Positions 5,580 through 46,211 of a DNA stretch of 64,000 bases are shown here, one piece after another. The stretch is taken from positions 1,002,330 to 1,066,329 of the forward strand of contig NC_057753.1 in assembly GCF_004010195.1 (NCBI RefSeq), given 5' to 3'. The notes under the pieces are model-generated. The model ran no database searches. It saw only the letters and a program-made list of their open reading frames with translations, and was not told where the DNA came from. Made by a program: the position numbers and the translations under genes. Numbering within the stretch: position 1 is the first letter of the stretch; each line of letters starts with the position of its first letter. The stretch comes from Chiloscyllium plagiosum. Taxonomy: Eukaryota.

Positions 5580-5737
5580 ATACCCCTGACATAATTGAAT
5601 ACCCAGAAGACAATGGCATCGAAGAAAAGGAACGAGAAAATATCAATGGACATGTCAACGGTTCATTATCGATTATGACATTCATCATCCTGTTTATTCT
5701 CAGTACGCTGTACAGCACATTTGTAACTGTGCTTAAG
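5580..5737 (+). CDS. IgNAR: Immunoglobulin heavy-chain transmembrane exon TM1, probably IgNAR (V/C exons would lie upstream of the window)
   Basis: Acceptor taattgcag|AT (phase 1) and donor AAG|gtaata. The 158-nt open exon reads (D)TPDIIEYPEDNGIEEKERENINGHVNGSLSIMTFIILFILSTLYSTFVTVLK: an acidic membrane-proximal spacer plus the antigen-receptor TM motif TF..LF.LS..YS..VT..K. The IgNAR class is inferred from the adjacent IgNAR C4/C5 pseudo-exons; IgW is not strictly excluded. Confidence 0.9.
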
Positions 5738-10416: not shown

Positions 10417-10425
10417 GTGAACTGA
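10417..10425 (+). CDS. IgNAR: Ig heavy-chain TM2 exon coding part (VN*), followed by 3' UTR
   Basis: cttttgctcgctgcag|GTG AAC TGA. A phase-0 join to TM1 gives the cytoplasmic tail KVN, analogous to the IgM KVK tail. Candidate polyA signals: ATTAAA 10708-10713, AATAAA 11033-11038 and 11199-11204. Confidence 0.8.
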   Translation: MN

Positions 10426-13400
10426 CCATCACTGCTGAAAACAATTACATTTGATTTCATTGAAAGCATGTGAATGAAGCTCCATCAGATGCTCACTGCA
10501 AATTGCATTGAATTGACGTCTTGCTCTCAACCGTATTAGCTGCTCCACGCAAAACTTCAACGTGTATTCCCATGTCGTCTCAACTAAGGAGTGAGAACTG
10601 TTGCACGTTTTCAGTCATTAACGTTTGGCTTCACGCTTTCTTTTTTAAGTGTTGTTGTTAGAGCAATTCCATGTAACTTCTACACATTGAAGAAATCACA
10701 CTTTCCAATTAAATAAGCTGAAGACAAGTCTTTGAAAGTTGCCAATTGCCGGTAACATTTTGAAACAGTGAAAGTGTACTTTACGTAACTCAGTTGTTAG
10801 AGATAAGTTCAATACATCTTCGAGATGAGTAACCAGAGAAGCTGTCCAAGCAGACACACGGGCAAGCATAGAATGCTTACCCAAGAGCATTAGATAGATG
10901 ACGGTCCATTGATTTAACAGAATGTCGAGTCATTACGACAGATACAAAAAGATCATTATCCAAAAATTATGTTGGAAAAGACTTGGAAACAAACGTACAA
11001 ACATGAATATTTATATCCTGACTATTGCCATTAATAAATTGAAAGCACAAGCCGGGATCTCCTCTGTTCAGCATTTCTATGTGTACAATACTCAGGCTGT
11101 CAGTGCTGAATGTGAGTTATCGCCTCGTTTGCTAGAACTAAGGAAATGTTTGAGAAAATCTTCAGCATGTTTCGAGATACGGAACCCAGAGAACACTTAA
11201 TAAAACGTCGTGAGTGTAGCATCCAATTTGATGCAACCTTGACTCAGTCCCATCATTTTAACTTCTCGTAGAAATCTCATGACTACTGTGCACTCACATT
11301 ACTATCCTTAACAACACATATGTGGAAATATGTTGCAAATATGATTCCTTCTTTCAAATCGTGGTTACGAATTCCCAGAAAGATTATTGTTAGGAGATAA
11401 TAGCCGTTCTACATCAATTTCACGAACTGCTAATTTCTAACATGTTATAATATGATTCGTTCTTTCTCTCGACTAACAAAGGCAAAACAAGTCAAACCGA
11501 CACCAGATACCTTGTAACATCACAGTTAACATTCAATTTACTTACATTTCTGCTGTTTATTTTGCTGAAAACCTTCTGATTGGTAATGAAAGTGTTTATG
11601 TATAAGACAATAATTGTCGTTTTGAGTGGGTAAGGGATTCATTCTTGAAATGTATGAGTCATTCAAACTCTTGTAACATCTCCAGTACCTTCACTTTATT
11701 CCCATATGTGTTTCTGGGCTTCTGAATTAACTGTTTTTATGAAACTGTAATTCTTGCGATTTTCAAAAAAAATTAATAGGGTGTCAGAAACAGTAGAAAC
11801 TTGCACGCAGTTCCATAAACTGTGAAAATGTAACACTGCCAGCAATAGATGTGACTGTTGCATTCCCATTTAGGTATTGCCTTTATATTCTGTCAAAGCA
11901 GAGATGTGAAATATACTTGCTACTATCTGCTCTATATTGCCTTTCATTTATGTTTTGCTGAAATGCTGGCCTTAAATCTAACACATGTTTTCAAAACGCA
12001 ATTTAATTAAGTTCATTCCAATGACTATGTCAGTATTCACTTCATGAATGATTTTACTTTTGCAAATAAAATCAAATCGATCAATTTTTCAATAAGCAAC
12101 CGGCGTTCAGAGTTCTATTCATTACTTTCAATGTTTCCTGGCCGTTATAGACGTCAGATTGAATCGAAACTTATTCCTGTGACGTTGGCAGCATTGGCAC
12201 AACCAGATCTTATTGCCCATCTACAATTCCTCTTCACGAGATTTGTTTTTTTTTTTGGCTGCTGCAATCTCTGTTACATCGGTGACTGCACAAAGCATAT
12301 CAGGATGATAAGTGAATTGAAGGGGAATTGACAAGCGCTTGTTGATTGCATGCAACGCATGACCTTATACTTCCAGAGAGTGGAGGAACGTGGTTCGAAA
12401 TTTATCATACAACAAAGAAGAGGGATAAGAAGTTATTGAATTATTGTCAGCCATCAATGATATCTAGTCTTCATTTCTTCATTCTTCATGGAAGACAGAC
12501 ATTATCACAACTACCTGTATTAAATTGGAAGCTCTATGCACTAAGGAATGTATCAATTATTGAAAAATGATGAGCAGATCTTGATACCTTGGCACTGCAT
12601 ATTGCTGATCGTGCTAATTATTTATTAGACTTTTTATGAATGCAATTGCGCTTATCATTGAGAGAGGGCTGGGGTTTTAAATTCTGCAGTGGGTAATTCC
12701 TGACATCCCAAAGTTGAAGGGTCAGATCAATGAATTTGGCCGCAGCTGAGATACCACTATTACCTGGACAGTATTTAAAATTATTTTTTACAATGTCTCT
12801 CAAACCGTCTTATAAGATGTCACCACAAAATGTTACTGTAATTAGCCACATTGTCAATTTTCAGTGGCCTTAGACAAATCATCAATTTTCAGCTGTGCAT
12901 CTTACAATAACACGAAAGGCTGAGAGTCTAAGGATTTCTTGGCATCATTAAGTAGCTCATTCTTCATGCAATCCCTTGCTCCATTATGTCTGTAGTTTAA
13001 AGGCAAGCGTCACGTTAGCTGCTTTCATCGTCCTAAAGTTTGCAACAATATCTTCATTTCATGCATTTCCAGTACATTGCAAAACCGTTAGGGTTGAAGC
13101 ATTTACAGATGGAAAATGGTATCAGCCTAAAAACTCAAATCTGTGTCAATAATTTACAATAGTGATTGGCTATGCATTCATTCACATATCATCAATGTTG
13201 CAGGAACAGTTCAAAGTGAACTGTATATTTCATTCATTATATTTCATGTGAACAAAATTGTCAGCGTTACACATGAAATGCTTTCACTACCTATAACATT
13301 CTAGAGGAATATAGGCTCAACTGACATAACATTGGGATTCGGAGATGTTAGGTTAATACCTTACGCAGTCCAAGAACATATGTGCAAAACAACTGAATGG

Positions 13401-13429
13401 ATAACATTAATTTTAATAGTGTGAAAACA

Positions 13430-14559: not shown

Positions 14560-17500
14560 AATGAGTCTTATGTTAGGCAGTGTTTGAGAAACATTAAAAT
14601 AATCAGAATTATAGGGGACTGTTCTGTCAATTGCACAGACATGTAACTCTGCAACGGCGAGCGCGAATGTAGGATAGAAGAATGCTTTCCTAATGCCAGG
14701 AATACAGAGATCTCAAAATTTTTGAAGCATATTGTTAAAGGGGAGATGAGAAATCAGAAGTTTTTAGCACACACTTGTAAGAATAACAGAAGCAAGGCTT
14801 TACAGAGTGAATATGACAAGTACGGTAGAAGTTTAAAAAACAAAACGTCACATGTAATATCTCTGGTTTACACAAACGAAGGAAAGAATCAAAGGATAAA
14901 GGAGTGAAGTTAATGGGTGAAGAGGGTGTCATGTTCAGGCATTTAGGTTTTTGGATCCTTGGCATCTTTTGGGGGCAGGAACGACCTGCTCAAGTAGAAT
15001 GGTTGTATCTATACTGGAAATGAACGAATATACTTGCGGGAAGATCATCTAATTATACTGAGGAATGCTGTAAACTATGAGTGGTGGGGGGAGGTGAAGG
15101 GACCCGATGTAGCAGATTAAATAGAAACATAGATGAGGATGGTTTTGAATCTGGAAAGAAAGAAATTTATAACAGACAATTGCAAGTCTAAGAATCAAAT
15201 AACTCTGACTAATTAATTTGAATTTATGTCAATGGAAGGTGTCTTGCATGGAAGGTTGATGATTTGTGAACACGGAATTAGGACGTCATACCTATGTCAG
15301 AATCCTGGGTCAAGTGTGAACAGGTATGGCAGCTCAATGTTTTGGTTTTCTTATGCTGTAGGAAGCACCGAAAGAGAGGCAAAATAGTTGGGGGAGACGA
15401 GTTTTGATTAGTGGAATCATTGCTATGTACCTCCAAAAGATATTTCTGAAAAACCTTCCGTTTAAAATACAGGGGCATTAGAAATAAAAGAAGGATTGAC
15501 CACCTTGATGGGATTTTACTGTAGGTATTTCAACAGCCAGAGGGAAATTTAGGAACAAATATATAGAAAGCTCTTCGATATATTTAAGAATACTGAAGTC
15601 ATAAGAGCAGGTGATTTTAACTTACCCAAACATTGTTTAGGACTACTAGCGTTCTAAAGTTGTGGATGGTGAAGGGTTGTTAAATTTTGTCAAGAATTTT
15701 TTTCTGATCATCTTGTGAATGTTCCTACTACACAAGATGAAGGAACAAACCGTGACCTTCCCTTGTGTAAAGTCAAACAGGAGAAAGTGAAGACTGCAGA
15801 TGCTGGAGATCTGAGCTGAAAATGTGTTGCTGGAAAAGTGCAGCAGGTCAGGCAGCATCCAAGGAACAGGAGAATCGACGTTTCGGTTCCTGAAGAAGGG
15901 CTCATGCCCGAAACGCCGATTCCCCTGCTCCTTGGATGCTGCCTGACCTGCTGCGCTTTTCCAGCAACACATTTTCAGCTAAAGCTATACAGGGCAAGTA
16001 TCTAAAGTAATAGTAGGAGAACACTCGGGGTCTAGTGATCATAATTCTATAAATTTAAAGTATTTTTCGAAAGAATAAGTCTTCTATAAAATAATTACGT
16101 TTTTATTTTGAATAAAGCAAATACTCATGCTATGAGTCAAGAGTTTTCAAAAATTGATTGGAGTAGACTGTTCATTTGTAAAGGGGCAGTCTTATAAGCG
16201 GGAAGCATTCACAAACGTGATGAGGAGAGTTCAGAGCCGTTATGTTCCAATTAGAGTGAAAGATAAGGCTCATAGGATGAGAGAACAATGGATGTAAAAA
16301 CATATTGAATCAAGAATAATAAGACCATATGTTTAACATCAACAACTCGGTTCAAATAAATTTTTTGAACACTGTAAAGAGTGACGGGGTATTCTTAGAT
16401 GGGAGCTCAGAAAGGTAAATAGAAGGTTTGAAATATCCATTGCAAGTAAGGTTACGGAAAATCCAAAGGTATTTTCCAAGTACATTAAGAACACAAGAAC
16501 AACTAGACTGAAAATACAGCTCCTTAAACATTGACGAGGTCTTTCTTGTGTTTTACCTCAGGAGATGGGGCAGATTTGAAATGAATATTATCCATCAGTT
16601 TACATGTGAACATAAACAATGAAGATCAGAAAACTCAATAAAATACTTATTGATGTTTTCAAAAGATTTAACATAACAGAAGAGGAACTCTTGGACGTCT
16701 TTGAATATATACAATTGGATAAATCTCAGAGACCTAACCTAATGTATCCAAGGACTTTGTGGGAAGTTAGGGAGGAAACGTGGGCACACTTACAGAAATA
16801 TTTTTATTGGGTATAAATACAGTTGACCTACTTATTGATTGGAGAGTTAATAATGCTTTGTTTTTTTTTGTTGAAGAAGGGTGTTGAGGCGAAACATGGG
16901 AAGTATAGATATCTACTTCTTACAGTTAGAGTTCAGGTACATAATTATTTGAAGTTTTCATCACATATACATAAGGTTGCGAAGAAGACGTTTGTCATGT
17001 TTGACTTCATTGCTGAGACCTTTGTGTACATGAGTCAGGGCATTTCGTTAAAGTTGTTTTGGACGTTGGTGAGATTTCCTCTGCCCATTTCTGATCTTCC
17101 TGCAGAAGGAATGATATCATTATTCTGGAAAGGATTCCAAAGAGATTAACCAAGGTTGGCCGGGGCTAAAATGTTTGCCTTAGAAGGAGAGGCTGGATAC
17201 GCTGAGACTTCTTTTTCCCTGGACCTTTGGAGATTGAAAGGTTCCCTAATAGAAGTTTATAAAAGCATAAGGGGTGTGGATAAGATTAACAAAAGATGGC
17301 TTTTCTCTTGGCTGGTGGATTTCAGACTGTAAAGTATTTTTAAAGCTGAGAAGTAAAATATTCTGAAAAGACATGAGAAGAAACGCATTCACACAGACTT
17401 TTTCGTGTGTGCAATGAACCTCCAGGGAAAGTGATGAATGACGGTTATAAAACATTTCTATCCGTGTACGAATAAGAAACCTTGCAGGGATATGAGCCAC

Positions 17501-17620
17501 GCACAGATACGTCGGTGGTTTACTTTGGGATTATGTTTAGTTTGGACTGGTTGGAATCAAAAGTGTGTTTCCATGACTCTATGACTCTCCCATTCTACGA
17601 CTCTATGAATCTATAAATAA
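14560..17620 (+). mobile_element. Decayed CR1-type LINE (ORF1 esterase, endonuclease, partial RT, 3' tail)
   Basis: Remnants such as IIGD, GDFNLP, SDHNSI and MYPRTLWEVREE; (ctatgact)-like tail at 17570-17610. Confidence 0.85.
15780..15980. mobile_element. Penelope-derived inverted-repeat insertion with hammerhead-like core
   Basis: Arms ~15814-15886 and ~15908-15980 are near-perfect reverse complements; CTGAAGA-A-GGGC(tcat)GCCC-GAAAC at 15890-15914. Confidence 0.8.
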
Positions 17621-17899
17621 AAATGTCCTGAGATGCTACAAATGCAAGATTTCAATCTGAGCAATATTCTTTAAATTTAGATATCTCAGTCTATTCCTTA
17701 TATGTCAGCATAACTGACCCTAAAACAATTATTTAGTAGGTTATCAATTATTTAGTAGGTCTGCCAACCGGGTGCTATTAGATTGTATACAAATTCATCT
17801 TTGTCTTTTTTGATGTTTACACTTTCTCGTCCATTCTTTGAACAGGAATATTCTACCTGTATTTTTTCTAATCTGCAGGGAGTTCTTTTATACTTTCTG

Positions 17900-18800
17900 C
17901 TTTAGAACTACATCTGCCAAGTTTTAGAAACTGCCAGTCTTTCTCTACGCTTTGTTTGAAAGCACCCGTTTTCTTCTGTAAACTTGCTGTACCACCCAAG
18001 AAGGGGATAAGTTATTTCATTCTGCCTACACAGTAAATATCCTTTATGTAGAGTCTGACCCCATTAACCATAGACTGCCCACTTACGGGTGCGAAAAATG
18101 TGCTAATTCTTGGACATTCAAAATCATTGAACGATGCTTTGTCATTCAGAAAACAACGGCTGCTATACTCTTGTCATATTCTTGGGTAATCACCGAAGAC
18201 ATAGGGGGCAGGACATCCTCCTTTGTTTGCAGGAAGTCTATCCTTGTATATTAATATATTGCACCTCACGCAAGTCCGAAATGATTCACGTTCATAGCTC
18301 AATCTATTGTGAAGAAACGTTAATGAACTCCTGATACATTAGAGGTTCTGCAAATTTGTAAACATTAGTTGCTAAGTTTGAACTGTATCTCAAACATCTA
18401 AAAAATCAAAAGTCAAAGTCATTTGTCTCTGTTCCATTTTTATGCAATCACTTGAATTGTCATGTTTCTGCGTTTGACCTGTTCAGTGCATAATAAAATG
18501 CATCAGAACAAGCTTTTCTTTTCAGCTAGACTCGAGTTCTTATTTATTACAAATTTAACTTTTGTGTACACCTTGAAGCGCAACACTTCGACCAATCTGA
18601 AAAATTGTCATTTCTCCTTTTCTATGATCAGGGCATTATTTTCCCACGGGGAACGTTTATTTGTATTCCAAAAATCTTAAGTTTTATTTTTAAAATACAT
18701 CTTTCTCTAGTTAGAAAACCATTTCGCAAAACCAATTCAGAGAATACAACCGCCTCTTCCCTTCATTAGCTTCTCGCACTACTTCATCAAAAAGAAATCA
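17900..18800 (-). mobile_element. Very old antisense CR1-like fragments
   Basis: Scattered decayed RT/endonuclease-region similarity on the minus strand; boundaries uncertain. Confidence 0.4.
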
Positions 18801-19369
18801 AGATTAGTTTCTCAAGCGTTGTCTCCCTTTTGCAAATCTGAATTGCAATGTGAATGTACCACTACTCTATTGTCTGTTTATTTCATTTTCTGCAATTATT
18901 GTTTTTTTTTTTTTTTGTTTTTACTAACTGCTGATATTACTTACTCGCCTGGAGTTGTGACGACTGACATGTTTCCCTTTCATTTGTCAACCTACCAGGT
19001 TTGTTTCCATTCTTAATTCTCCGTTCCACAGTTTACTTAATTTTACACCAACTAATTTTCACTGCTAGTTATATTTTTGCACATACGTTGTTAGAGCGTC
19101 CATTTCCCTTGTAGATCTCTGTCCAATACACATTAAATGCATGACTGTGCATCTGGAAACATATGCCATCTTCTCAGTTTCTGACTGGACTCACACCTGC
19201 ATTATTTATATGCCTATAGAATGCTTTTGGGTTTTATTTTCACACGTTATCTTTTATGTTGACCTACAGTCTACATAGATTTGTTTCGACGCAACAAGGT
19301 CATCTTGAAAAATTCACCTGCCATGCAGTATAAAATCGCATTTCCTTTTCCACTTTAACCTGACAATAC

Positions 19370-22170
19370 TGTGCCTTTAACAGATATATTTTGTCCAGTT
19401 TTGTTTTATGAAGAAACGTTGAGATCAGAGGTGCCTTTCTTCTGAAACCTTGGTGTTTCATTTTCTAAAGTTTGGAACAATAAAAGCAGCTTGAATATTT
19501 CGGGTCAAGTGTCCATTGAACCAGGATTTTCTTGTTTGAGATTTTCAGGAGCAATTGTTGCTGGCCTCTTGAAGCTGGATTTGAAGCTGCAGTACTTCTC
19601 ATCCTGCTTCTCTTACGTTCAGATTTTTGTTTTGTTAATGCTTATCTTCCTGGAATGGAGAATTGCCTGCGAGATATTCGATTTCTTTGAACTTGACTGT
19701 ATCAAGGTTTGGTTATGGGATGCTACAATGTTGGAACAATAAGTAAGTAACAGTTAACATATCTGTTACTTTGTTAAACGCTTCGATAGAGTTACAGTTG
19801 AGCCAAGTGTTTTATTTTACTTTTATTTTATTTGCATGTTAATGGTACTGTAAAACTGAATGTCTTTTGGCTAGACCAATCGAATTTTACTTGGAATGTA
19901 GAGTTTGAAACTGACCTTTAAGATGAGAACATGTCCACGATCTTCTCTCACATATTTGAAGGGGTTTAGTGTGGTCTGTAACAAACAGGAGGCTACTTTC
20001 GGGATCAAAATCTCAAATACCACATTGGATTTATGATTGTGGGACTGAAAGGCCATGAGTCGTGCGTATAGGCATCTTTCATTTTGGGCGTTGCTTTCGG
20101 TTGGTTTAAATAGACCTTGTATAATAATTCCTAGTTCAGTCGTTAAATGTCTCCCAGGTGTGGAAGAGATCACTTGCGATGGTTTACATAAATTGAGAAA
20201 GGCACAGATTTCGGAATTGGCAAGCGACTTGGAGTTGGGTTTTCAGTGTCTGTGGGGAAAGTGAAGATAATTGTGACAACCATGCAGCATTTACAATTGC
20301 CAGGAAAATGACTAGTTTCTTTGAAAATAGCTACAAATCAATTGTAAGTGTCGCAAAATGAAGTAGAAGCAAAGGGAAAGGAAGAGTAAATCTGGCAAAA
20401 GAAAAATAAAAATGAAATGAAATGAAAACAACTCAATTGCAATTTAAAGCAGGTGAAAAATAACCGAAAGGGAGGCTCTAACATGCTACACATCAATTGT
20501 AAGTGTCGCAAAATGAAGTAGAAGCAAAGGGAAAGGAAGACTAAATCTGGCAAAAGAAAAAGAAAAAGAAAAATGAAATGAAATGAAAACAACTCAATTG
20601 CAATTTAAAGCAGGTGAAAAATAACCGAAAGGGAGGCTCTAACATAAGAAAGGCAGGTAGAGAGAGAGAGAATAAATGGAGAATGAGAGAGAAGAAAGAA
20701 AGAAAGAAAGAGAAGGTTTTTTTTTAACTTCAGTGTTTCGAACTCTAATCTCGAAGTGGTTTAAAATGGTGAACATAGATCGGAAAAGGAAAAGTAATGA
20801 AGGCAAGGTTATTTAGGAGTTTCCTCTGCCATCGTTGAAGAAGGCAAACTACGATTTCTGGGTTTGAGTGATGGTTTTTTTATCGCATGGTCGTGCCAGA
20901 TTTTGGGAGTGTGTTTGCACACTGATTTATTTATTGAGTAAGTGCAGAACATTTGAAAACAATGGAAGACTTTCAGAAGGCATTGACAGCTTGAAAGCAG
21001 TGTTAAAGTCTGCTCCAGTGTTAGTGAAACCATTCAAAGTGTGTATCCACACAAATGATGTGGCTATCGGTGCTGTCCTTGCAAGGAGACAATGAGGAGA
21101 TAAAAACGATGCATTGTGTATTTTTTCCAGAGAATTGAAAAATAGTTAACTGAAATATGCCATGATTAAGAAGGGAGACCTTCAGATTAGTGTTGGCTTT
21201 GTAATTCTTGTCGAAATTTATATTGGCATTAATATTTCTGAGACAATCTTATGTACTGATTACAACCTCTTAATGTTTATGGAGACATCTAAACACAAAA
21301 ATTGCAGACTGTTTCGATGGAGCTTATTATTGCAGCCATTCATTTTCAAAACTATACACGTGGCAGGAAGAGAGATCATAATTGCTGACACATTGTTGCG
21401 ACTTTGATTACTAAAGATGGAGACGGGAATAAAAACGATTAAAATACACCGTAGCAATGAATGTTTAGTGATTGTAGGCTTAGAGTTAATGCAATATATA
21501 TGGATTTAAGTGAACTAATAATGAAATTCTAAGCATTTCCAAAAAAACGAAGTCATCATTTCACGTTCATGCTTCATTTTCTAAAGGAGGAAAGTATGAC
21601 GATACTATGACAAAGAGTTGTGTTTTGTTGTGCTTTCTTTTAGATGGTGATCTGTGAATAGGCGATGAACGCTGTATGCGAGATAAACAACCTGTAAAAG
21701 TTTGAGCCTTTTGAAACAATAGAAGCAACCGGCAATGGCATGATCATTTCTAGCAAACCAGCGTTTTTAACTTCCAGTTTAGAGATTTCAACAGCTGATG
21801 CTGGTGTCTCAGTGGGGTTGGAAGCTGGAGTATATCTCTCCCAGTCACTCTAAACGTTGTAAGTTTTCTGTTAATGACACTTGGCTACAGAAGATGCATG
21901 TGAAACAATTTGTGTTCTGAATTTGCATTTTGCCAGGGGTACGTTTGTGGAAAAGTCAATCAGTAATATTTAATATATCTATTATTCTGTTAAGTTTTTT
22001 TATTTAGCAATTATATTGCAATTCCACCTTTATTTTTGTGGCATTTTAACGACAGTGGATGAATTAAAGTGTGTGTTGTGTTTTAATTTCGTTAGTTCTA
22101 ACAATCGAATTACCTCTGGAATGCAATGCGCTACATTTATCTATAAAATTAAATAAACGTTATGCCTTGT
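19370..22170 (+). mobile_element. Decayed, internally deleted Ty3/Gypsy LTR retrotransposon
   Basis: Two diverged LTR-like blocks (~19370-19983 and ~21598-22170) share motifs (tt.gaacaata.aagca, gaagctg.agta, caatcgaatt…ggaatg). Also a gag-like remnant LHKLRKAQISELA, RNase H remnants PFKVCIHTNDVAIGAVL and RLFRWSLLLQPFIFKTIHVAGREIIIADTLLRL*, and a purine tract aaaggaggaaag near 21583-21594. Confidence 0.8.
20330..20645 (+). repeat. Two-copy tandem duplication (155 and 161 bp) inside the Gypsy gag region
   Basis: Units 20330-20484 and 20485-20645 both run gctaca…ggctctaacat and are nearly identical. Confidence 0.95.
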
Positions 22171-22199
22171 ACTAGGCAAACATCAAACTGCACTTTTCT

Positions 22200-23090
22200 T
22201 TTTGAATTGTAACTGTTGCATAGCGTCCAGTGCACTGGCATGTTTATTACTCAACTAGATGCTTCTTAAATGTTATGAGACTGCACCCACCACTCTCACT
22301 GGTAGTTTATTCCATATTCCTCCACCGTCTGTATAGAAGAAACTTTCCTCAGACCAACTTCAAGCCACTTACTCCTCACTGTACATTTATGCCGTATGCT
22401 GTTATGGACGTGAACTGAAGGGAAATGCAATCTCATAATCTTCTATTCTTATGCCTCTTATAATTTTGTGCACCTCAATCACATCTATTCTCTTCCCATC
22501 AGCATTCTCTGCTGCAGTGAAAATGCACTCTACCTGTCCAGACTCTCCACATTATTTTCTTCCCAGATAACATCCTGGCGAATCTCGTCGACCTTCTCTC
22601 AATTCTCATCTCGTCCTCCTTCTCGTGTGGCAACCAGAACTGTGCATAATATTCTATCTGTGATCTAAACAATTTCTTTTCTAAAGTTGCAACAAAATTT
22701 ACTTTCTTCCACATTCGATACCTTGGCTTTTGAGGGCAAACATCCCATACGCCTTGTTTACCATTTCACCTGTGCAAACAACGTCAGGGACCTATAAACA
22801 TATGTACCAAGATTGCTTTGTTCCTCAGTATTACTTGAGGTCGTACGATTCGTCATATATGTATTTACTTTATTGAATCTCCCAAAATTTACCAGATGAT
22901 CAATATGGGATTCTGTTCCGAGAAAAAAAGCTTACTACCAACAATACCACCAATTGTTGACTCAGACGTTAGCATGCTAATTCAAGTTTCTGCATTCGTA
23001 TTCAAATCATGAACGTACATATCAAACAGCAAGGTTCCTAGCATTGATACAGGACCCTCATACAGACTATCATAAATTACAAAAGGCCAT
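22200..23090 (-). mobile_element. Old CR1-type LINE 3' fragment
   Basis: Minus ORF 22499-22714: QIEYYAQFWLPH…RRFARML-like motif. Confidence 0.75.
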
Positions 23091-23239
23091 TGTCAACTCT
23101 CAAGGCAAGTCACTGAGCACTGCAGCCGCAGAGTCATCAGAAACAATACCAGTCGCAACCAAAAGTGCTCTTATAGACAACTGAATAGTTATTTCTCCCA
23201 CAAGCAAATCCTGCTTTCATTGGTTTATCTAATTAGATT

Positions 23240-23795
23240 TAGAGATGACATTATACGCCTGTGGAACATACGGATCTTGAATCCAGGCCTCTACACCCAG
23301 AAAGAGGGCCGCTATCGCTGTGCTGAAAGGGCTCTTTACATCTTTTTTCTATGTATTCTAAACAACCTGTTCAGTTATGTTATTGCACACATCAGGACAG
23401 GTGTGTGTCACACCCGAGCCTACTGGTTGAGAGGTACCTATTCACATTTATTAGTTTAAATTTACAGAGATGTCATGACACACCCAGCAGGTGGGATTTG
23501 AACTGAGGATTTGAGTCGTTTTAAACACACACCTTTTGTACCACCATGGCGCTGCACGTTACATTTTCATTTTAATTTCTCAGCCAAGCTATTCAGAGAT
23601 GTTATTATACACCTCTGGAACTGTTGGGACTTCAATTACGACCTGCTGGTTTAGAAATGCCTCTTATTAAAGGAATGTTCTCATTAAACCGTTCACTGAT
23701 ATTATGACACGCCCCTTGAACAAATCGGACTTGGTTTCAGAGCCTCCTGATTCAAACGTACAGACACTGGTACATCAGCACAAGAGCCCTCACTC
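23240..23795 (-). repeat. Degenerate tandem array of about five ~110-130 bp tRNA-like units
   Basis: Recurring gagatg(t/a)(c/t)at(t/g)a(t/c)ac.cc…ggga(c/t)ttgaa motif; the reverse complement resembles a Pol III B-box (ggttcaagtccc). Confidence 0.55.
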
Positions 23796-25389
23796 TTCAC
23801 ATGTTTTTGACCAATGGACGGAAGGGTCCTGAAGGCCCAGATAATATTACAGAGGAGGCCAGTGAGCTCAATTGCCTCGAACGTGCTTCTTCCAAATTTA
23901 AAGAAGTGGTGAGCTGGTGTGCGTGGTCAGACCCTGTTCCACCTAAAAAGCAAATTATTTTTGTGGAGGCTGAAAGAGGAACCAGCGCTGATATGCAAAA
24001 GAGACTGCGTGAGCAAGCAGGGGGGAGAGAGAGAGAGAGAGAGAGCTTAAAAGCAATAAAGAATACCGAGAGAGAGAACCGTTTACTTCTGTGTCTAACT
24101 TTTAAAAGTTGCAGCAAATTGCGCCGTTCATTCCTGCAAGATAATAGCTTGGCTTTTGGACACAGCCAACAGTGTGGTATTTCCTCTACTATTCCTTCAT
24201 TTTAACAATGTAGCATCGGTTTCTGAAATTGATGTAACTTTCCTTCCCCAAGTTCAAGAACAGTTTATTTGCTTTATAAACTGAGACCATCCATTTCATT
24301 TCATTCACTAACTTCCGTGAATATGTGTTCTCTCGGAAAATAATTTTTAATCTTCAATACTTTTTTTTATTGCTGTCTCCATTCCACCTCAAAATGTTTC
24401 CAAATCATAAACTGCTGTGCATTGAAATCAGCAAGACAATACTCTTTTAGCTAGTCAATTCACCAACCAGTTCCTTAGATGTACTGCAGAATGCAATCTC
24501 CCTATTCGAAGTCATTTTGCAAATCATTTGCTGCTGAAAATTGTTTGCACAGCCGTTACATTTCGTCCTCATTCCTTCATTACCTGATTCACTTGGAGCT
24601 TCTAATGCACAGCATCACCATATTCACTTTCCCCTTCCAACGTAAGTATTCTGGACAGCGGTGTGTGCCGATCCAGACACTTTTAAGTCTCCTATATTCA
24701 CGGCAGTGAATATAGCTGGTGATCAAGTTTGGGAAAAAAATACACCATAATCTCGCTCAACCACTTGTAATCACCAGGGGTGTCTTTAAATCCTTCAGAC
24801 ATATTAAGAAATAAGATCACCGTCATGAAGTGAATATTAACTCGAGTGTGAAGCCAAAAGATATCTTCAGACACATCCATCACCATTTCTGGGACTTCAG
24901 AGACACAACAATCTGAAATTAAAGGAATGGAGAATTGGGATTTTCGAGAAGAGGATGGCGAACGTTTCCATAGAACGACAAGAATGGGGGCAGCAATGAA
25001 CGGGATTAATCACCATAAAAACATTTCAAGGTTGAAGTTTATCTCGGCAAGAATCATGTCGATCACTGGTCAATGGAGGAAATGTTTTGCATCCGACGTG
25101 GGATAAAGAAGGGAGTGTGTGGGCATTCAAATGTGGTTTGTAGATCGGAGACAATTTGAAGAATCTGGTGGAATATTTTTAAACATGGTACGAAGCGTTC
25201 AGACTACAAGCGCCTAGGACAGGGAGGAGAGAAGACAGACGTTGAAATTCAATCTACAGTGAGTCTTGTGAAGACAGGCAGTTGAAATTGATAGAGCTTT
25301 CAATCAGTGATGGAATAAAATAGAAAAAAAGGATAAACAATTACTAAATTGAATTAACAGAGTGAGCAGAATCGATGACCTGAATAGTC

Positions 25390-25757
25390 TACACAACGCC
25401 TGGAGGAAGAGCGCCTCATCTTCCGCCTAGGAACCCTCCAACCACAAGGGATGAATGCAGATTTCTCCAGCTTTCTCATTTCCCCTCCCACCACCTTATC
25501 TTAGTCCCAACCCTCGGACTCAGCACCGCCTTCTTGACCTGCAATCTTCTTCCCAACCTTTCCACTCCCACCCCCTCTCCGGCCTATCACCCTCATCTTA
25601 ACCTCCTTCCATCTATCGCATTCCCAACGCCCCTCCCCCAAGTCCCTCCTCCCTACCATTTATCTTAGGCTGCTTGGCACACCCTCCTCATTCCTGAAGA
25701 AGGGCTTATGCCCGAAACATCGATTCTCCTGCTCCTTGGATGCTACCTGACCTGCTC
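25390..25757 (+). mobile_element. Penelope-like element 3' end (endonuclease C-terminus, 3' UTR, hammerhead-like motif)
   Basis: QRLEEERLIFRLGTLQPQGMNADFSSF, a C-rich UTR, and CTGAAGA-A-GGGC(ttat)GCCC-GAAAC at 25694-25718. Confidence 0.85.
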
Positions 25758-26013
25758 CATTCCATTAAAGAGAATTGTTCAAAACAGACAGCGACCATTG
25801 TGTGTGAAATCATCTGCAGTGAGTTAGAAAGCATCGCTGTGCCCTGGTAAGTGGCTAGGAGCATGAGAACAGAAAGAGTGGCGGCCAGAAATCCTGAGTG
25901 GAATAGAAGCAAATTTATCATGTGAGCAAGCTTTAATTCGGGGAAACAGAGTGGGTAAAACAATGAATGACGAACAGCAAAGAAAACACCAGCGAGGAAC
26001 GAGGAAAGCAGAG
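25752..26013 (+). pseudogene. IgNAR: IgNAR C4-domain pseudo-exon
   Basis: Frame from 25785 reads QTATIVCEIICSELESIAVPW*VARSMRTERVAARNPEWNRSKFI, then a frameshift to VSKL*FGETEW. This matches remembered shark IgNAR C4 (QTATIVCEIVYSDLENIKVFWQVNG…NPEWSGSKSTIVSKLKVMASEW). Lesions: TAA at 25848-25850, frameshift near 25920, apparent deletion of the second-Cys strand, 5' end abutting a Penelope fragment. Likely donor AG|gttaga at 26014. Confidence 0.85.
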
Positions 26014-26039
26014 GTTAGAGTTGAATATACTGGTTCACT

Positions 26040-26600
26040 GAATGACTATAATGGGGAATCAGGGCATTCGGCCCATCAAATGTACATAGACTCTCAAAAG
26101 AGCAGACCGCTCAGAACCACCGCCTGTAACATTTACCTGTAAACCTGTATATCCCATCGTTAATCCACCTTGCCTGCACGGCCCTGGACAGTATGTGTAA
26201 TTTAGCATGACCTATCCACCTAAGTTGCACATCTTTGGAAAACATTAGGAAAGGTGCAAACCAGAGGAAAGCCATGCGGACACAGTGCAATGTATGAACT
26301 CTACACATACGGTCGTGCAAGTCAGGAATTGAACTCGGGTCCCTGGAGCTGTAAAGCATCAGTGCCACTCTTCACGTGTGGAATGGTGACTGTGGCTCAG
26401 TGGTCAGCGCTGCTGCCGCACAGTATTCGGAACCCTGTTTATTGTCACCCTGGGGCAAACTGCATGCAGTTTGCGTATTCTCCATATGTCTCCCTGGATT
26501 TCATTCCACAGTTCTGAGATATGCAAGTTGGGTGGATTGGCCATGCTATTTGCCCTACTTGTCAAGAAATATGCAGGTTAGGTGATGTTCAGGGGCTGAT
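26040..26600. mobile_element. Two decayed tRNA-derived SINEs (HE1/V-SINE-like), head to head
   Basis: Minus copy ~26040-26370 and plus copy ~26385-26600 (gtggctcagtggtcagcgctgctgcc…gtttgc.tattctcc…gtggattggccatgcta). Confidence 0.7.
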
Positions 26601-26953
26601 GAAATGAGCTGTTTTTGTAATGATTTTCCACATAAACTGTCCATGTACGCATGAACATGCAATATTATAATCTACATTTTCATTCTGCAAACACTAATCT
26701 GAAAATAATACAAATGATTGCATTCCAACAGGTTCAGTTTTTCTTTCATTTATAGCTGATCGGCTCAAACTTCTGGCAATTGAACATGAGAGTAAGATCA
26801 AGCCACCAAAATTAAGGACATGAGTTACATCAGCGAACAATTGGAAGAAGAATACAATTTCAGACCTCCACGCCTATACTATTAGTAACAAACAGAAGAA
26901 GGTGTGAAATATTTACAAAGAAGGGACTCAGTGTAGTATTATTCTTTTGACAG

Positions 26954-27333
26954 TTGAGGAAATGCATCCTCTTAAAATTTACATTATGTCCGCATCCATG
27001 CCCGAGATTGACGTTGAGAACACAGCTGCCCTGGTGTGTCCAGTGAACAGCTTTTATTCTGTGGAGATTTACATCGGCTGGATGGCTAACGACACACTTT
27101 GAGATTCAGGGTGCCAGAGCCCAGTGCAGAAGAGTAGGGGAAATGATCCTAATTCCGTGACCAGTAGCTTGAGACTCACTGCAACAGACTGGAACAGGGG
27201 AACCATGTACTCCTGTTTACCAGAACACTCATCCCTCAGCCACAATTTAATTAGAAGTATAAATATGCCCATGAAAAACCAACGTTAGTTAGTTTCACTT
27301 GTCCAAACTTACAGTTTAAAACCCTGTTCATAA
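26954..27333 (+). pseudogene. IgNAR: IgNAR C5-domain plus secretory-tail pseudo-exon
   Basis: Acceptor attcttttgacag|TT (phase 1). Reads (V)EEMHPLKIYIMSASMPEIDVENTAALVCPVNSFYSVEIYIGWMANDTL*DSGCQSPVQKSRGNDPNSVTSSLRLTATDWNRGTMYSCLPEHSSLSHNLIRSIN, with Cys 27037, Trp 27079, Cys 27214 and an in-frame TGA at 27100-27102. The IY(V/I)GWMANDTLLDSG motif is IgNAR C5-like. A frameshifted tail KPTLV/VSLVQTYSLKPCS* ends at TAA 27331-27333, and the internal G|GTAAA donor for TM splicing is absent. Confidence 0.92.
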
Positions 27334-28219
27334 TCTGAGGTGTCTGCATTATAGATTCCTGTAGATGCAATAACGTCTTTTTGCAAAATCTAAGCAACTG
27401 AGTCAAATTTAGATATTCTGAAATTCTCATGGAGTATTCACTGGCATTACTAGACAAAGATGAAATTGCTTAAGTGGCTTTGATAACTGCAACAAATGAA
27501 GAAATACAATCTGAAGCCTTCAATATCAGTATTTTGCAAATATTATTTTACACTTGAACCAAATATTTATACTCTCCAGTCTGATTTGTGAGCAGTGTAA
27601 TACATCCAGTGCCCAAAGGTTTGCGATCTTTAGCGTTGTTTTTAATCACTTACTACTAGGTGATCTACAAGTTCAGGTAGTACACATCTTGAAGATGGCA
27701 ACTCGCTCTTCATGAACAACATTTTCATTGACCCCGCTGCTGGTCTTCAATAGTGGGTGTGTGAACCTACTAGTGAATGAGCAGAAACGCCCAACAAATA
27801 AACGATAAACCACCCAAACCAATGTCTGCTATGCCTGAAAAACGTCAGTTTCACAATTCCCTGATACATCCTTCTCTTTGGCCATTGTCCGAGACGAAAC
27901 CTGGATTCAGAGTCTCAATGTCGCAATTGAAACCAAGTTGTCTCCAAACACTATTGACTCCACCACTATGACTGGCTGCTTGCCACTCTGAAATTTAACT
28001 CTACTCTCAACTTCTCTTCGCTCACGTGTTGCTGAAAGTGTCAGTCATTCCTTTGTTACCTGCCGATTTGACTATTGGAACTGTCTCCTGGAATGACTCC
28101 ATTCTTCTTGCACGTTTAATAGTATGTATTCACTTTGTCGTCATTTCACATCATTGGTATGGCTTCCACAGTTGCAAATGACAAAATGTATATGTAAATG
28201 GTGTAATGAGAATCTGATT

Positions 28220-28336
28220 GGAACATAGAACATAGAACATAGAACAATACAGCACAGAACAGGCCCTTCGGCCCACGATGTTGTGCCGAACTTCTAACCT
28301 AGATTAAGTACCCATCCATGTACCTATCCAAATGCC
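28220..28336 (-). mobile_element. CR1 3'-terminal fragment, same family as 7200-8938
   Basis: Reverse complement of the 8830-8938 tail, including (catagaa)n. Confidence 0.9.
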
Positions 28337-29809
28337 GGGATTATTAATCCAGGGACCCAGGTTGGTGAACACAGTTGATATCTCAACAGCTGCTGCTTGA
28401 ATTGGAGGTCCATTGGCAAGTCTGTAATTACTCTTAGCAATGGGACCTCAGAGACCATACCGTAAAACACCACTAGTTCATTAAAATACCTTTCATAAAA
28501 CAACATCCCCAAAGCCTGATATGGTCTGTGCAGTCATTTTGTAAATTTACTCGAGGATAGCCACATGAGCATTCCGTTCGTGGGCAACTAGATATCGGCA
28601 AAAAGTGCTGATGCCTTCATATTGTGAAACAAGACATAGTAGATGATCTTGTTGTCCTGCATTACTGGCCTTTTCTGTATCCCGCTTTTCTATTTTTTGA
28701 TTGTTGGCAGTCAATGGCAAATAGATTTAGATCAACAGCAAAAAGGACTATGCTGTTCCATGTCAATATTACGTCTGCTGATCCAATATTTATCACAATG
28801 GTTGCGTTACATGCTCATCTCACGAGGGAACAAGATCATTGTGTAATCTCTCCTGTTCATAATTCGTATGCACAATGTCAAGGTAGAACCTATAGCATTG
28901 GTTAAAAAATTGATTGGCATGCTTCTGTCCAGGTCTATCGTTCAGAAAGTCCAACGTTGTGAATGGAGAGGATAACAATATAAAAAGCCAAAGCAGCGAG
29001 CCGTTATTGCATGTGTCAGGTTTTGCATGGTATATTGTTGGTTAAAAGTCTCCAGTACCAGATTTACGGAAAAGAGTGCAAAGAAGGAATGCAAACAGTT
29101 GACATATTACAAATGAATTAATGTGTCATCTCAGGAAAGTGTACACCTATAGTTATGTCAGAGAATACACACTCACTAACCAACTCTGCGCAACATGTGA
29201 TTGACCTGTCGACAGGTGGTGAGGCCTTTTTTAGCCTCAATTAGTGCTCTGTCCAATGGAATGTAAAGCTGTTTATGTTAACGGGGTCACTGTGACTTTG
29301 GCTCTCATGACTGCCTGAATATTATCTATCTGTCCATCTCAGATGGTGTCTCAATACATAGACAAGTCTGCTCGACGAACTGCTGTACCTGGTAATGTTG
29401 GAGCGTCGCTCTGTTATTGGGGGAAAGGCTGTTTGATAAGTGGTGCATACATCTTCGCTGGTGGTTGTTTTAGAATGGGAGAGATTTGGTGGCATAGGAT
29501 GTGTCATCTGTGCACACAGACAGTATTTCTCTTAGTGGAAGAAAAGAAGAACATATATAAAATTTCCACTCTCTCTTACAAGATCCGAACCCTACAGTTC
29601 TAACGCAATAAGTATATTTTTTACATTATTATGGATATTTTGTCAATCAGTATCAGGATGACAAAAGTAACTGTTACATGTTCAAGACAAGTATGTTGAA
29701 ATTCTAATCCATCACCAAACCGGCGATTGCCATTTTCATGTAATCCTGACTGTTTGTATTCTGCTTTCAACGTGAACACATTTATAGCAATAAACAACAA
29801 TTGCTTCTC

Positions 29810-31785
29810 AAAACCGTGAAGAAGTACTTTAAGTATATTAAAGAAAAAAGAATAACTCTGGAGAGAATAGAGTCCTTTAAGGACGATAGTAATCATTTAT
29901 TTGTAGAACTGCAGGATATGAGCGAGGTTCTCAATAAATATTTCTCCTCTGTGTTTACAATGGAGGAAGACATGGAGAATTGGGAGTTTGGGGAAGGTAG
30001 TGGTGATGTCTTTGGGACAGTCCCTCTTACAATAGAGGAGGTTTTGTATGTATTAGAATGCATGAAGATGGATAAATTTCCTGATTCTGACCGGATATAT
30101 CCAAAAACACTGCAAGGAGCTCGAAAAGAATTTGCGGGGGCCTTGACTGATGTTTTTTACGTCAGTGTTAGCCATGTGTGATGTCCCGGAAGACTGGAGG
30201 TTAGCGAGTTTGGGGCCAGTATTCAAGAAGGGATGCAAAGTAAAGCCTGGGAACTGTAAGCTTAACATCTATGGTGGGTAACTTACTTGATAATATTTTG
30301 AAATAACATTTTCATTCCTTTGGAAAATTGAGCTTGAATGGGAGTAGTCAACGTGGTTTTGTGAGTGAGACATCATGGTTCACAAATTTGTTATAGTTCT
30401 TTGATGAAGTGACCAGCAAGGTTAATGAAGGTTAGGCAGGTGACGTAGTCCACATGGAATTCAGCAAGGTATTTGATAAAGTTCTACATGTTCGGTCGCA
30501 TGGGATATAGGGTGAATTGGAAAATTAGACACAAAATTGGCTTGCTGGTAAGAAGCAGAGGGTAATACTGGAAGTATGCTGGTCGGACTGTAGGCCTGTG
30601 ACAAGTGGAGTGTCCGGAATTTGGTGCATGGAATACCACAGCAGGTCAGACTGCATCCGAGGAGCAGGAGAATCTCCTGCTGTGACAATAAAGCTACGTG
30701 CCTGACCTGCTGTGCTTTTCCAGCAACACAATCACGCCTCTGATGTCCAGCATCTGCAGTCCTCACTTTCTTCCAGTAGTGGAGTCTCTCAGATGTCGGT
30801 GCTGGGCCCGTTGCTGTTTTGTTATCTATATCAATGATTTAGATGAGAATGTACAAGGCATGATTAATACATTTGCTGATAACACTAAAATAGGGGTGTA
30901 CAGAAAGGAAGGTTATCAGAACTTGTAGTAGGCCCTTGATCAGCTGGGGAAGTGGGCCACAAAATGGCAAATGGAATTTAATATCGATAATTGTGACGTC
31001 TTGCATTTTGGAAGGTCAAAAGAAGGTAGGAATTTCATGGAGAATGGCAGGGCCTAAAGGAAGGTTGTTGAATAGATGGATCTTGGAGCTCAGGTTCACA
31101 GATCTCTGAAAGTGGAGTTGCAGGTGGACAAGAGAGTGAAGAAGGTTTTTGGCATACTGGCCTTCATCAGTCAGAACATTGAGTGTAGTATTTGGGAAAT
31201 TATGTTACAGTTATACAGGACGTTGGTGATGCCACACTTGGAGTATTGTGTTCAGATTTGGTGACCTTTTTATGGGAAGGATCTTATTAAACTGGAAAGA
31301 GTTCAGAACATTTGTAAGGATGTTGCCAAGACTCGAGGGTCTGAATCGTTGGAAGAGGTTGGACAAGATAAGCCTTTTCTAATTTACAGAATAGGAGACT
31401 CGCGTGCACCTTAGAGAGTTCTATAAGATCATGAGAGGCATAAATAGAGTGAATGTACTAAGTCTTTTCCCCAGGGTTGAGGAATGGGGGACGACAGGAT
31501 ATCAGTTTAATGTTAGAGGGAAGAGAATAAAAGGTAAACGGGGGAACATCCTTTTTAATACAGAGGGTGGAATGTTTATTGAATGAGATGTCCGCTAAAG
31601 TCATTAAGGTTGGTACGTTATCAATATTTAAAAGGAAGTTGCACAAATGCATGGTTAGGAAAGGATTAGAAGGATGTAGGTTGAATACAGGGAAATAGGG
31701 TTATCATGGATGAAAACTTTGCTTGCCATGGGCCGTTTGGACCAAAGGGTCTATCTATGTGTTGTTGGAATCTATGGCTCGATGC
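29810..31785 (+). mobile_element. CR1-type LINE RT region with a nested Penelope-derived piece (~30620-30775)
   Basis: EVLNKYFSSVFT, YINDLDENVQGMINTFADNTK and LVMPHLEYCVQIW. Confidence 0.92.
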
Positions 31786-31795
31786 ATGTAGGCAG

Positions 31796-31938
31796 AGGAT
31801 GACTCAGAAGTCTACGAGTTTGAAGAAGACACGTTGGAATTTTTTACATGAGCATAGCTGGACTGCCTTCATGTTGATCAGTTTGTAATTTTGTTTACTC
31901 TCAGCATGGCGTATAACTTCTTTGTGACTATGAAAAAG
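31796..31938 (+). pseudogene. IgNAR-type TM1 pseudo-exon
   Basis: Reads (E)DDSEVYEFEEDTLEFFT*A*LDCLHVDQFVILFTLSMAYNFFVTMKK. The C-terminal 19 residues align without gaps to the intact TM1 (FIILFILSTLYSTFVTVLK), with an acidic spacer upstream. Two stops (likely compensating frameshifts) and a donor position reading AAG|ataaaa instead of AAG|gtaata. A CR1 3' end lies immediately upstream. Confidence 0.75.
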
Positions 31939-39790: not shown

Positions 39791-39984
39791 TGAAAAGGAA
39801 GGGCCAAGTACTAGGAAGTGGGATTCCTGTAGATAGCTAAGTACCAACGCGATGGGCCATAGGGTATCTTCTGTGTTGCGTGACTATTTAACTCTTGGGG
39901 TGAGCCCAGAATGAGAGAACTGTTTTCAGCTTTCTGTTTAAATTTTTAAGTTTGCAATTTTAACATTTATGCATTTTGATACAG

Positions 39985-40070
39985 ACACTGCATTAATTGT
40001 TATCGTTTTCATTATCTTGTTTACTCTTAGCATGTGGCCCAGTGGCTTCAATTTTTCGAGAGCTACTTGA
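39985..40070 (+). other. Ig TM1-like exon, open reading frame with its own stop; function or pseudogene status unknown
   Basis: gcattttgatacag|AC (phase 1) reads (D)TALIVIVFIILFTLSMWPSGFNFSRAT*. FIILFTLSM aligns with FIILFILST (5580 exon) and FVILFTLSM (31796 pseudo-exon). Confidence 0.55.
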
Positions 40071-40659
40071 CCTTACAATCCTTCCTCCAACGACTTCCTT
40101 GACATGCAGTGTAGTCAATCCCAGCTCATCCATGGAATAACGTTGCAATACGGGTGAGAGCTGATTACGACTGGATAAACCGAAACTGACTGTCAATAAG
40201 CAACTTATTCCTAAGCAGATCTTATTTGACAACACTGTTGATGAGTTTTGTTTTCACTTCAGATCATCGAGAGTAGAACGATGAAGCAGTACTTAGAGGA
40301 TTGGATGTGTTCTGCCCATTCTTTACATGTCATAGGTCAGCACTGTTTTGCTTTTTCAAGGAGATAACAGTGTTTCGGATGTACTGGAAAAGCTTGACTC
40401 GAAGCGTAGAATTTCTCGACCTCAACTCTTACATATGAATGACACTATCTTTTCAAAGGCCATAGCCTTTTCAGTGTCCAGTGTTTCCAGTCGCTTTTTT
40501 TTTTCATTCATTGTATATGGTGGTCACTGTCTGAACTAGCATCTATTTCTCGTGACTTGTTGCTGCAATGAATGAAATGGTGAACAGCTTTCTTGAATTG
40601 TTGAAGTTCATTTGCTGAAGATCCACTACAATATCTTTAAGGAACACGTTCCAAGAATT

Positions 40660-44760: not shown

Positions 44761-46211
44761 GGGAAATCAGAGAGGAACAACAAAAACTATATTTTCTAGT
44801 GCACCCACAGTTCCTAATATAATAGAAGAAAATATATTATCTTCCATCCTAAAATTTCTTATTTCAGATTCAAATTTATAGATCGCCGAAGTAAGTCGAG
44901 GAGAAAGACAGCTTCAACTGATTAAAGTTTTGGTATTGTTTCAAGCAATATATACCAAAGATCATCGAAAACAATTTAGGAAACTACAAATGGAATGCGA
45001 CAGAAAGCCAGGAGATTGCTGTGAATAACTTAAAGTACTCTTAAATTCAAACTATTTGCGTTGGAAACAAGCGTTTTGTTTTCACATAAATCCAGGATCC
45101 ACTCAACATTACTTTTGGGTTTAAATTATTCTGTTCAAAGGTGTTACATAGAGATCTCATTTCAGAAACAACCAGTGTCTTCAAGCGTTCCATAAATCTT
45201 ATGGCTTGGTGCACGCCATTCAATTAGAATGTTATTTACCTTCTTAAAATGCTCCTTTAAAGTTCCATGGAATGCAATGAACGTTGTGTTGTGATAAATT
45301 TACACAAGTCAAGAACAGCTAACCTGAAAACATTTCACGCTTCATGACAAGGCTTAATAATTTTGATTTGTGCTTTTGGTTATTCACCGTGATCACAGAA
45401 AATTTTCCTTGTTTCCACTTGGCTTCTCATTAAACGTTTGTTACTATCAGTGAATTCGACATCACTGTCCGGACGTTTACTTCCGGTTTTTGTTTAAAAC
45501 TTGTGTGGGAACGTTTGTCAGTGAAGACTGTAGAACTGTTGCACGATTATCAGCAACTGAACCTAGTATCTCAAAAACATATGGAAACTATTTCCTTAAC
45601 TCCTCTTAACTTGCACATTCAATTTTAATTATTTAAGTTTATTGTTAAGCATAATTATATATAAATTCAAGAAACCACTGAACTGGCGAAATTCCAGAAC
45701 ATAAATCAAAATGAACCGAGAAAAAATAATTGACTGCTCATATGATTAGGTCGGATGTTGCAAGAGCAACAGCGTTTTTGATCCCGGCCTTTCTTAATGA
45801 TCAATAAATAAACGTGAAAAGTGTTCCTACCACATTCTTGAACTCATGAATTCGAATTTCAGAATGTCAATCCCCAGTAATCTTGATTTCCTTACCGATA
45901 CAAGATTCAAACATTCCCTGTAGAACAAATAAACATAGATGTAAGCCATAAAACAGATAGCAGAAGAGTCGAAAGTTAAGAAAAAAAGCCGGAAGTACAC
46001 ATTTCGCTGCTTTTTAGATCACATCACCATAGATTCCCTCCCCAAGGTATTCCATTGACGGAAGAAATGGCTGATTCCAAAGGTTGCTGACAATTGCATC
46101 AGTGATTCAGAAGGGGAAATCTTCAATAAAGCGCTTGCATATATAATATACATTGACAAGAAAGCTAAATTTGTGCATTTCCCCTTACAAATGTAATGAC
46201 AGTAACATATA

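What the first reader, a model, noticed from the sequence alone, without database searches (positions are those of the whole stretch)
25752..31938. Headless IgNAR relic (C4-C5/Sec-TM1) in tandem just downstream of the intact gene
Seen: C4, C5 plus secretory tail and TM1 pseudo-exons in correct order and orientation, each with its own lesions (stops, frameshifts, lost donors, TE insertions). I found no V, D, J or C1-C2 in the ~15 kb between TM2 and C4. Its TM spacer (DDSEVYEFEEDTLEF…) differs strongly from the neighbour's (DTPDIIEYPEDNGIEEKERE…). Inference: an old paralogous cluster or partial 3' duplication, not a recent copy. It may represent a lost IgNAR lineage and informs how shark Ig clusters are born and die. 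V-centred annotation would miss it.
Basis: partly seen in the sequence, partly recalled or inferred. Interest (0 to 1): 0.75.

Follow-up and report, generated by a model that had tools for sequence, protein, structure and literature searches.

The report
Headless old shark nanobody gene relic
This is a broken remnant of a shark heavy-chain-only antibody (IgNAR) gene that keeps only its last exons, likely an old copy whose front half was deleted later; front-less copies of this gene are already described in bamboo sharks, so it is mostly ordinary.

Summary
Confirmed: decayed IgNAR C4 (5'-cut), C5 with secretory tail and TM1 lie in order on +, with stops, frameshifts and two lost donors. No V, RSS or C1-C3 was found in the 64 kb. 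It is IgNAR, not IgW: 51-54% vs 35-41% identity, 9 vs 0 of 14 diagnostic columns. Contigs of other individuals carry the same frameshifts and the C5 stop. C4 starts mid-exon, fused to a young, end-truncated repeat, so the head was likely removed by a later deletion. The relic falls outside the two Chiloscyllium IgNARs sampled (sister, 81/83) and has a basking-shark-like TM, so it is probably an old paralogue, not a recent copy of its neighbour. Two corrections: the 'intact' neighbour cannot be checked (only its TM1 and TM2 are in the window), and V-less IgNAR clusters are already published for the white-spotted bamboo shark (3 of 7), so this may be one of them. Added here: a second TM1-like fragment at about 40.0 kb. 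New member of a known kind; low interest, with a modest upside as a fossil of an early IgNAR branch.

The parts
5580..5737 (+). Neighbouring IgNAR TM1 exon (open frame, AG acceptor and GT donor intact); context, not part of the relic
   Evidence: 64-67% identical to C. punctatum IgNAR TM, E 1.5e-16
10417..11040 (+). Neighbouring IgNAR TM2 exon (Val-Asn-stop) and 3' UTR; 3' end approximate
   Evidence: acceptor and stop seen; a contig of a probable RNA run, 85% alike, begins to match at 10415 after 50 unmatched letters, as a spliced paralogue transcript would
25391..25756 (+). High-copy repeat fused to C4; its 3' end is cut short relative to other copies. Penelope-like by recalled motifs only
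   Evidence: other copies run on past 25756; 87-95% identical to three other copies in the window over 54-56 nt
25757..26013 (+). IgNAR C4 pseudo-exon, about 15 codons and acceptor missing; stops 25848 and 25934, frameshift ~25921, second Cys lost; possible GT donor at 26014 (inferred)
26954..27333 (+). IgNAR C5 plus secretory tail pseudo-exon; stop 27100, frameshifts ~27267 and ~27293, internal donor lost (27274-75), tail keeps its penultimate Cys
31795..31938 (+). TM1 pseudo-exon, 5' end unclear (abuts a LINE-like repeat), compensating frameshifts ~31845 and ~31882, donor lost
   Evidence: TM HMM 24.8 bits vs shuffle maximum 10.3; 107 of 161 aligned bases match neighbour TM1 and run on into its intron
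39972..40049 (+). Probable second TM1 fragment (new here; about 75% confident)
   Evidence: TM HMM built without the relic: 14.6 bits, 0 of 30 block shuffles as high; second-best DNA match to relic TM1 among 275 windows, 54 of 75 aligned bases
45449..45715 (+). Possible decayed TM2/3' UTR of the relic (weak, not clear of chance)
   Evidence: ranked 1st, 2nd and 2nd of 712 windows under three scorings, level with null windows; not in the top six

Best explanation
This is a dead IgNAR pseudogene that keeps part of C4, C5 with its secretory tail and TM1, likely the 3' end of an old paralogous cluster that lost its V, D, J and C1-C3 when a later deletion joined a repeat to the middle of C4. Steps: (1, inferred) a whole-cluster duplication early in the carpet-shark IgNAR lineage; (2, shown) inactivation by stops, frameshifts and donor loss in every exon; (3, junction shown, mechanism inferred) a deletion from inside a young repeat to about codon 16 of C4 removed the head and most of the spacer, leaving it 15 kb behind the neighbour's TM2. 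It is predicted to make no protein.
For: IgNAR not IgW: 50.6-54.3% identity to 5 IgNARs vs 35.0-40.7% to 15 IgW; 9 IgNAR states, 0 IgW states, 5 neither at 14 diagnostic columns; nesting with carpet-shark IgW rejected (p-AU 3e-78); IgW one side at 100/99. Old: sister to both C. punctatum IgNARs (81/83), outside the pair in C4 and C5 trees separately (pair support 83/88, 89/90), grouping with the TM-form one alone rejected (p 0.031); at 18 Chiloscyllium-specific columns the relic codon is nearer the other sharks in 8, nearer Chiloscyllium in 5, tied in 5; the nurse-shark C4 shows the Chiloscyllium state at the three C4 columns where the relic has the older one (read by eye). Relic TM aligns stop-free with the basking-shark TM through two compensating frameshifts (19 of 40 identical). 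Later deletion: repeat and exon are both truncated at the junction, removing the repeat does not restore the C4 start (gain 5; null mean 9, 95th percentile 31), the repeat is 87-95% like its sisters while relic and neighbour TM1 match at about 66%. Not assembly noise: contigs from 4 runs show no indel in any exon; one covers the C5 stop with 0 differences; contigs from 3 of 4 runs start 27-30 bases inside the repeat and run into C4.
Against: Only five shark IgNAR references (two from Chiloscyllium) plus one unnamed C5, and the relic is a long branch (0.6). Trees forcing it outside all shark IgNARs (p 0.21), with basking shark (p 0.22) or between IgNAR and IgW (p 0.105) are not rejected. C4 alone does not resolve its sister (24/0). 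The neighbour's own C4/C5 could not be fetched, so relic versus neighbour rests on TM1 only. The in-frame reading of the relic TM scores about as well against the Chiloscyllium TM (71 vs 65). The junction contigs have 27-30 bases on the repeat side, short of the tool's 31-base bridging rule, and none spans the whole 366-base repeat. The two C4 stops could not be checked one by one (109 differences not shown).
Confidence: 0.68

Rival explanations
1. An ancient partial 3' duplication that never had V-C3 and was dead on arrival, trimmed a little further later.
For: Short 15 kb spacing versus 82 to over 200 kb between nurse-shark Ig clusters (PMC5192425 passage); no trace of a head; a second TM1 fragment shows local partial duplications can occur.
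Against: The visible breakpoint is younger than the divergence; no unique-sequence similarity between 11-25 kb and the region beyond the relic in self-comparison; the relic branch is only about twice that of functional sisters (0.6 vs 0.27-0.29), less than a fully neutral history would usually give (inference).
Confidence: 0.17
2. The relic belongs to the ordinary Chiloscyllium cluster radiation (for example a copy of the neighbour) and looks old only through neutral decay and sparse sampling.
For: Shares 5 derived states with Chiloscyllium IgNARs; long branch warning; neighbour C domains unseen.
Against: 8 columns retain or sit nearer the non-carpet-shark state, several exactly; a probable expressed paralogue matches the neighbour's UTR at about 85% while relic and neighbour TM1 match at about 66%.
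Confidence: 0.1
3. Headlessness is an assembly mis-join across the repeat at 25391-25756; the head lies elsewhere.
For: No short-read contig spans the repeat.
Against: Both repeat junctions occur in other individuals' contigs and the repeat is truncated at the C4 side, which an insertion would not explain; no N gap before 63349.
Confidence: 0.04
4. It is an IgW remnant.
For: IgW C5/C6 are homologous and score 170-217 on C5; a placement between IgNAR and IgW is not rejected.
Against: IgNAR scores 264-295; 0 of 14 IgW states; nesting in shark IgW rejected, p 2e-4 and 3e-78.
Confidence: 0.01

Closest known systems
[quoted passage not shown]
   Same: Tandem IgNAR cluster remnant without V among other IgNAR clusters, probably the same genus; may be one of these very loci
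   Different: I could not see their figure, so cannot match exon content; in the text read they give no lesions, breakpoint, age or phylogeny for the incomplete clusters
Functional IgNAR (C. punctatum AYN64869, GCC21074; Heterodontus UTD43068; Triakis BAJ20185; Cetorhinus XP_078391649; PDB 2mkl)
   Same: C4, C5, Cys-bearing secretory tail, TM1 in the same order; 51-54% identity over C4+C5
   Different: No V, D, J, RSS, C1-C3; every exon disrupted; lacks most Chiloscyllium-specific states
IgW long form (nurse shark IgNARC, Carcharhinus and Triakis IgW)
   Same: Homologous last two C domains and tail
   Different: 35-41% identity, 0 of 14 diagnostic states, nesting rejected

Membership tests
IgNAR gene cluster | C4/C5 domains of IgNAR rather than IgW type | tested here: met
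IgNAR gene cluster | Own V, D and J segments with RSS | tested here: not met
   no V hit above null, no RSS in 64 kb; D and J themselves are too short to test except through their RSS
IgNAR gene cluster | Five C exons C1-C5 | tested here: not met
   only part of C4 and C5
IgNAR gene cluster | Secretory tail with penultimate Cys contiguous with C5 | tested here: met
   present but behind frameshifts and a stop
IgNAR gene cluster | TM1 and TM2 exons downstream | tested here: inconclusive
   TM1 decayed but clear; TM2 candidate not above chance
IgNAR gene cluster | Expressed light-chain-free dimer | not testable with these tools
   frames are closed, so no protein is predicted
Incomplete (V-less) IgNAR cluster / pseudogene | IgNAR C and tail exons without V, in tandem with other IgNAR clusters | tested here: met
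   kind described in PMC8692893
Incomplete (V-less) IgNAR cluster / pseudogene | Identity with one of the three published incomplete loci | not testable with these tools
   figure not held, no coordinates in the supplement text, no genome
IgW | IgW-type terminal C domains | tested here: not met

The most novel reading that the evidence does not exclude
The relic is the fossil of an IgNAR branch that split before nurse and bamboo sharks diverged, with the older type of membrane anchor, and an intact orthologue with its own V type survives at the same position in another carpet shark.
Probability: 0.15. Interest if true: 0.55.

Novelty: new member of a known kind. Interest (0 to 1): 0.22.

Why it matters
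Mostly an annotation detail: V-less IgNAR clusters are known. Its value is as a dated fossil. If the early branching holds, it shows that the active carpet-shark IgNAR clusters expanded or were homogenised from one of at least two older lineages, and it records a death sequence (decay, repeat insertion, head deletion). An intact orthologue elsewhere could offer a divergent VNAR scaffold.

Tried and rejected
No genome held, so no synteny or neighbour C exons. Word-indexed protein searches with the relic C5 and the neighbour TM1 found nothing; references came. RNA: no RNA holder listed; on 10200-30100, X21 and X23 gave no depth in the C5 bin and X22 and X24 laid nothing; this is no evidence on expression, and the relic TM1 was outside the stretch. 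Weak hits examined and left as chance: IgW-V-like 44422-44616 minus (6.9 bits, null maximum 8.1), C2-like ~40523-40741 (7.0 vs 6.7; score 60 vs null 57; contains stops), C1-like ~58 kb (7.2 vs 6.3), C4-like 29011-29097 (scores 56-58). C4 start upstream of the repeat: not significant. Rfam on 25300-25850: only a chance hit. Earlier-findings look-ups near, by 'IgNAR', by sequence and by relatives were empty. Jia et al. 2023 on bamboo-shark IgNAR loci is not held. PMC11767079 passages gave nothing relevant. No structure or complex prediction was run; none bears on a pseudogene.
Full report
Setting. The window is repeat-rich shark DNA with one N gap at 63349-63848. No genome was held. Two earlier notes on this genome call it a bamboo shark (AI notes, leads only). 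My own check agrees as far as it goes: the neighbour TM1 is 67% identical to a Chiloscyllium punctatum IgNAR TM and 39% to the basking-shark one. I did not establish the species.

Observation. References came from a HMMER search with the relic C5 and a follow-up search: five shark IgNARs and a set of IgW chains. tblastn and a frameshift-aware scan with 66 domain queries find Ig-constant homology at two places only, both on +: one ending at 25954 (best IgNAR C4, 97-145; IgW C5 70-84 and IgW C3 up to 100 there) and one ending at 27264 (IgNAR C5 264-295; IgW C6 170-217); null maxima reached 57. TM queries hit 5740, 31941 and 40049. The C4 piece hits PDB 2mkl at E 6e-10; C5 is a Pfam C1-set domain. 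Lesions: C4 has stops at 25848 and 25934, a frameshift near 25921, and loses homology after 25954. C5 has TGA at 27100 and frameshifts near 27267 and 27293; its internal donor position reads AA (the GT there is inferred from the secreted and membrane reference proteins). TM1 has two stops in one frame or two compensating frameshifts, and AT in place of the neighbour's GT donor.

Headless. In 11.2-25.7 kb no query scored above 52. HMMs for IgNAR V, IgW V, C1, C2, C3 and the C4 start stayed at or just above the maxima of 8 block shuffles; the two marginal hits (C1-like ~58 kb, C2-like ~40.6 kb) lie downstream of the relic, and the second, the one inspected, contains stops. No RSS with at most 1+2 mismatches occurs in the window. 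The 'intact gene' shows only TM1 (5580-5737) and TM2 (from 10417); its intactness is untested. A contig from a probable RNA run matches from 10415 at about 85% after 50 unmatched letters, which fits a spliced paralogue and fixes the TM2 position.

Not an assembly error. Contigs of four DNA runs cover the exons; the indel table lists none in C4, C5 or TM1, one contig covers 26724-27142 with no difference, and one 4009-base contig covers 25727-29853 apart from a skipped 118-base repeat. Limits: 109 substitutions were not shown, so the C4 stops are not individually verified; the junction contigs of three runs have 27-30 bases on the repeat side; none spans the repeat.

IgNAR or IgW. Over C4+C5 (164 columns) the relic is 50.6-54.3% identical to 5 IgNARs and 35.0-40.7% to 15 IgW; at 14 diagnostic columns it has 9 IgNAR states, 0 IgW, 5 neither; nesting within shark IgW is rejected. 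In the tree of 22 rows IgW is one side at 100/99. Against: forcing the relic between IgNAR and IgW is not rejected (p 0.105).

Age. The tree puts the relic as sister to both C. punctatum IgNARs (81/83) on a long branch (0.6 vs 0.27-0.29). It stays outside that pair in separate C4 and C5 trees of 11 rows, and pairing with one of them was rejected (p 0.031; the other pairing was not tested). At 18 columns specific to the Chiloscyllium pair its codon is nearer other sharks in 8, nearer Chiloscyllium in 5, tied in 5, the mixture expected of a stem branch. The nurse-shark C4 shown has the Chiloscyllium state at the three C4 columns where the relic has the older state (read by eye), hinting at a split before nurse and bamboo sharks parted. 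Its TM reads without stops against the basking-shark TM through two frameshifts (19 of 40), though the in-frame reading scores similarly against Chiloscyllium. Placements outside all shark IgNARs or with basking shark are not rejected, so 'old' is better supported than any exact position.

How the head was lost. C4 begins near codon 16, directly after a repeat (25391-25756) that stops about 25-30 bases earlier than three other copies. Removing the repeat does not restore the exon start. The repeat end is 87-95% identical to its sisters, whereas relic and neighbour TM1 match at 107 of 161 bases. So the junction postdates the split: a deletion, not the duplication breakpoint (inference). It also explains the 15 kb spacing against 82 to over 200 kb between nurse-shark Ig clusters (PMC5192425, passage) and seven clusters over 800 kb in bamboo shark (PMC8692893). 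Whether the cluster ever functioned is inferred, not shown.

Extra part. A TM profile built without the relic scores 39972-40049 at 14.6 bits; 0 of 30 block shuffles exceeded 10.3, and the stretch is the second-best DNA match to relic TM1. A TM2-like stretch at 45.45 kb is not clear of chance.

What is known. PMC8692893 (passages, section 26, supplement legends): seven IgNAR clusters on Chr44, four complete and with V genes, three incomplete; Figure 1B, which gives their exons, is not held. PMC7677710 (passages and supplement passages): four complete and two incomplete loci, region checked by linked-read re-assembly. PMC11641339 (first quarter and passages): three nurse-shark loci, one not expressed. 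PMC12227049 (abstract, section 6): IgH isotype clusters are linked but do not intermingle. PMC6155905 and PMC11767079: passages only. Jia et al. 2023: citation only, not held; it may describe this locus. Searches listed no paper that, by title, abstract or the passages read, dates or dissects an incomplete IgNAR cluster; subscription papers are mostly not covered.

Verdict. A real, ordinary pseudogene of a published kind, possibly a published locus. The new elements are the deletion junction, the probable early branching and the second TM fragment. Interest 0.22.

Noticed in passing
window 39972-40049 +: Second TM1-like fragment, closer to the relic TM1 than to the neighbour's; either a local duplicate or the last trace of a third cluster.
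   Followed up: partly
window 45449-45715 +: Weak collinear likeness to the neighbour's TM2 and 3' UTR, not clear of chance.
   Followed up: partly
window 28220-28337: A 118-base repeat in the C5-TM1 intron is skipped by contigs of X1 and X2: a presence/absence insertion.
   Followed up: no
window 25391-25756 and copies at ~3700, ~15800, ~30650, ~32150, ~49800: Abundant repeat whose recalled features (endonuclease tail, minimal hammerhead-like core) suggest a Penelope-like element; Rfam gave no hit; PMC6155905 passage says such elements carry minimal hammerheads.
   Followed up: partly
window 46212-47044: Near-identical tandem duplicate of about 417 bases; a shorter one at 20330-20645.
   Followed up: no
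window 26972 and 27220: Other individuals' contigs differ here in C5; at 26972 they give the Pro seen in several functional IgNARs.
   Followed up: no
window 29011-29097 +: Borderline C4-like stretch inside the C5-TM1 intron (scores 56-58, null up to 57).
   Followed up: no
P0160 (Cetorhinus XP_078391649): The gene model fuses a receptor-like region, an upstream IgNAR-type TM exon and a whole IgNAR, hinting at tandem IgNAR clusters there too.
   Followed up: no
window 63349-63848: 500-N assembly gap.
   Followed up: no
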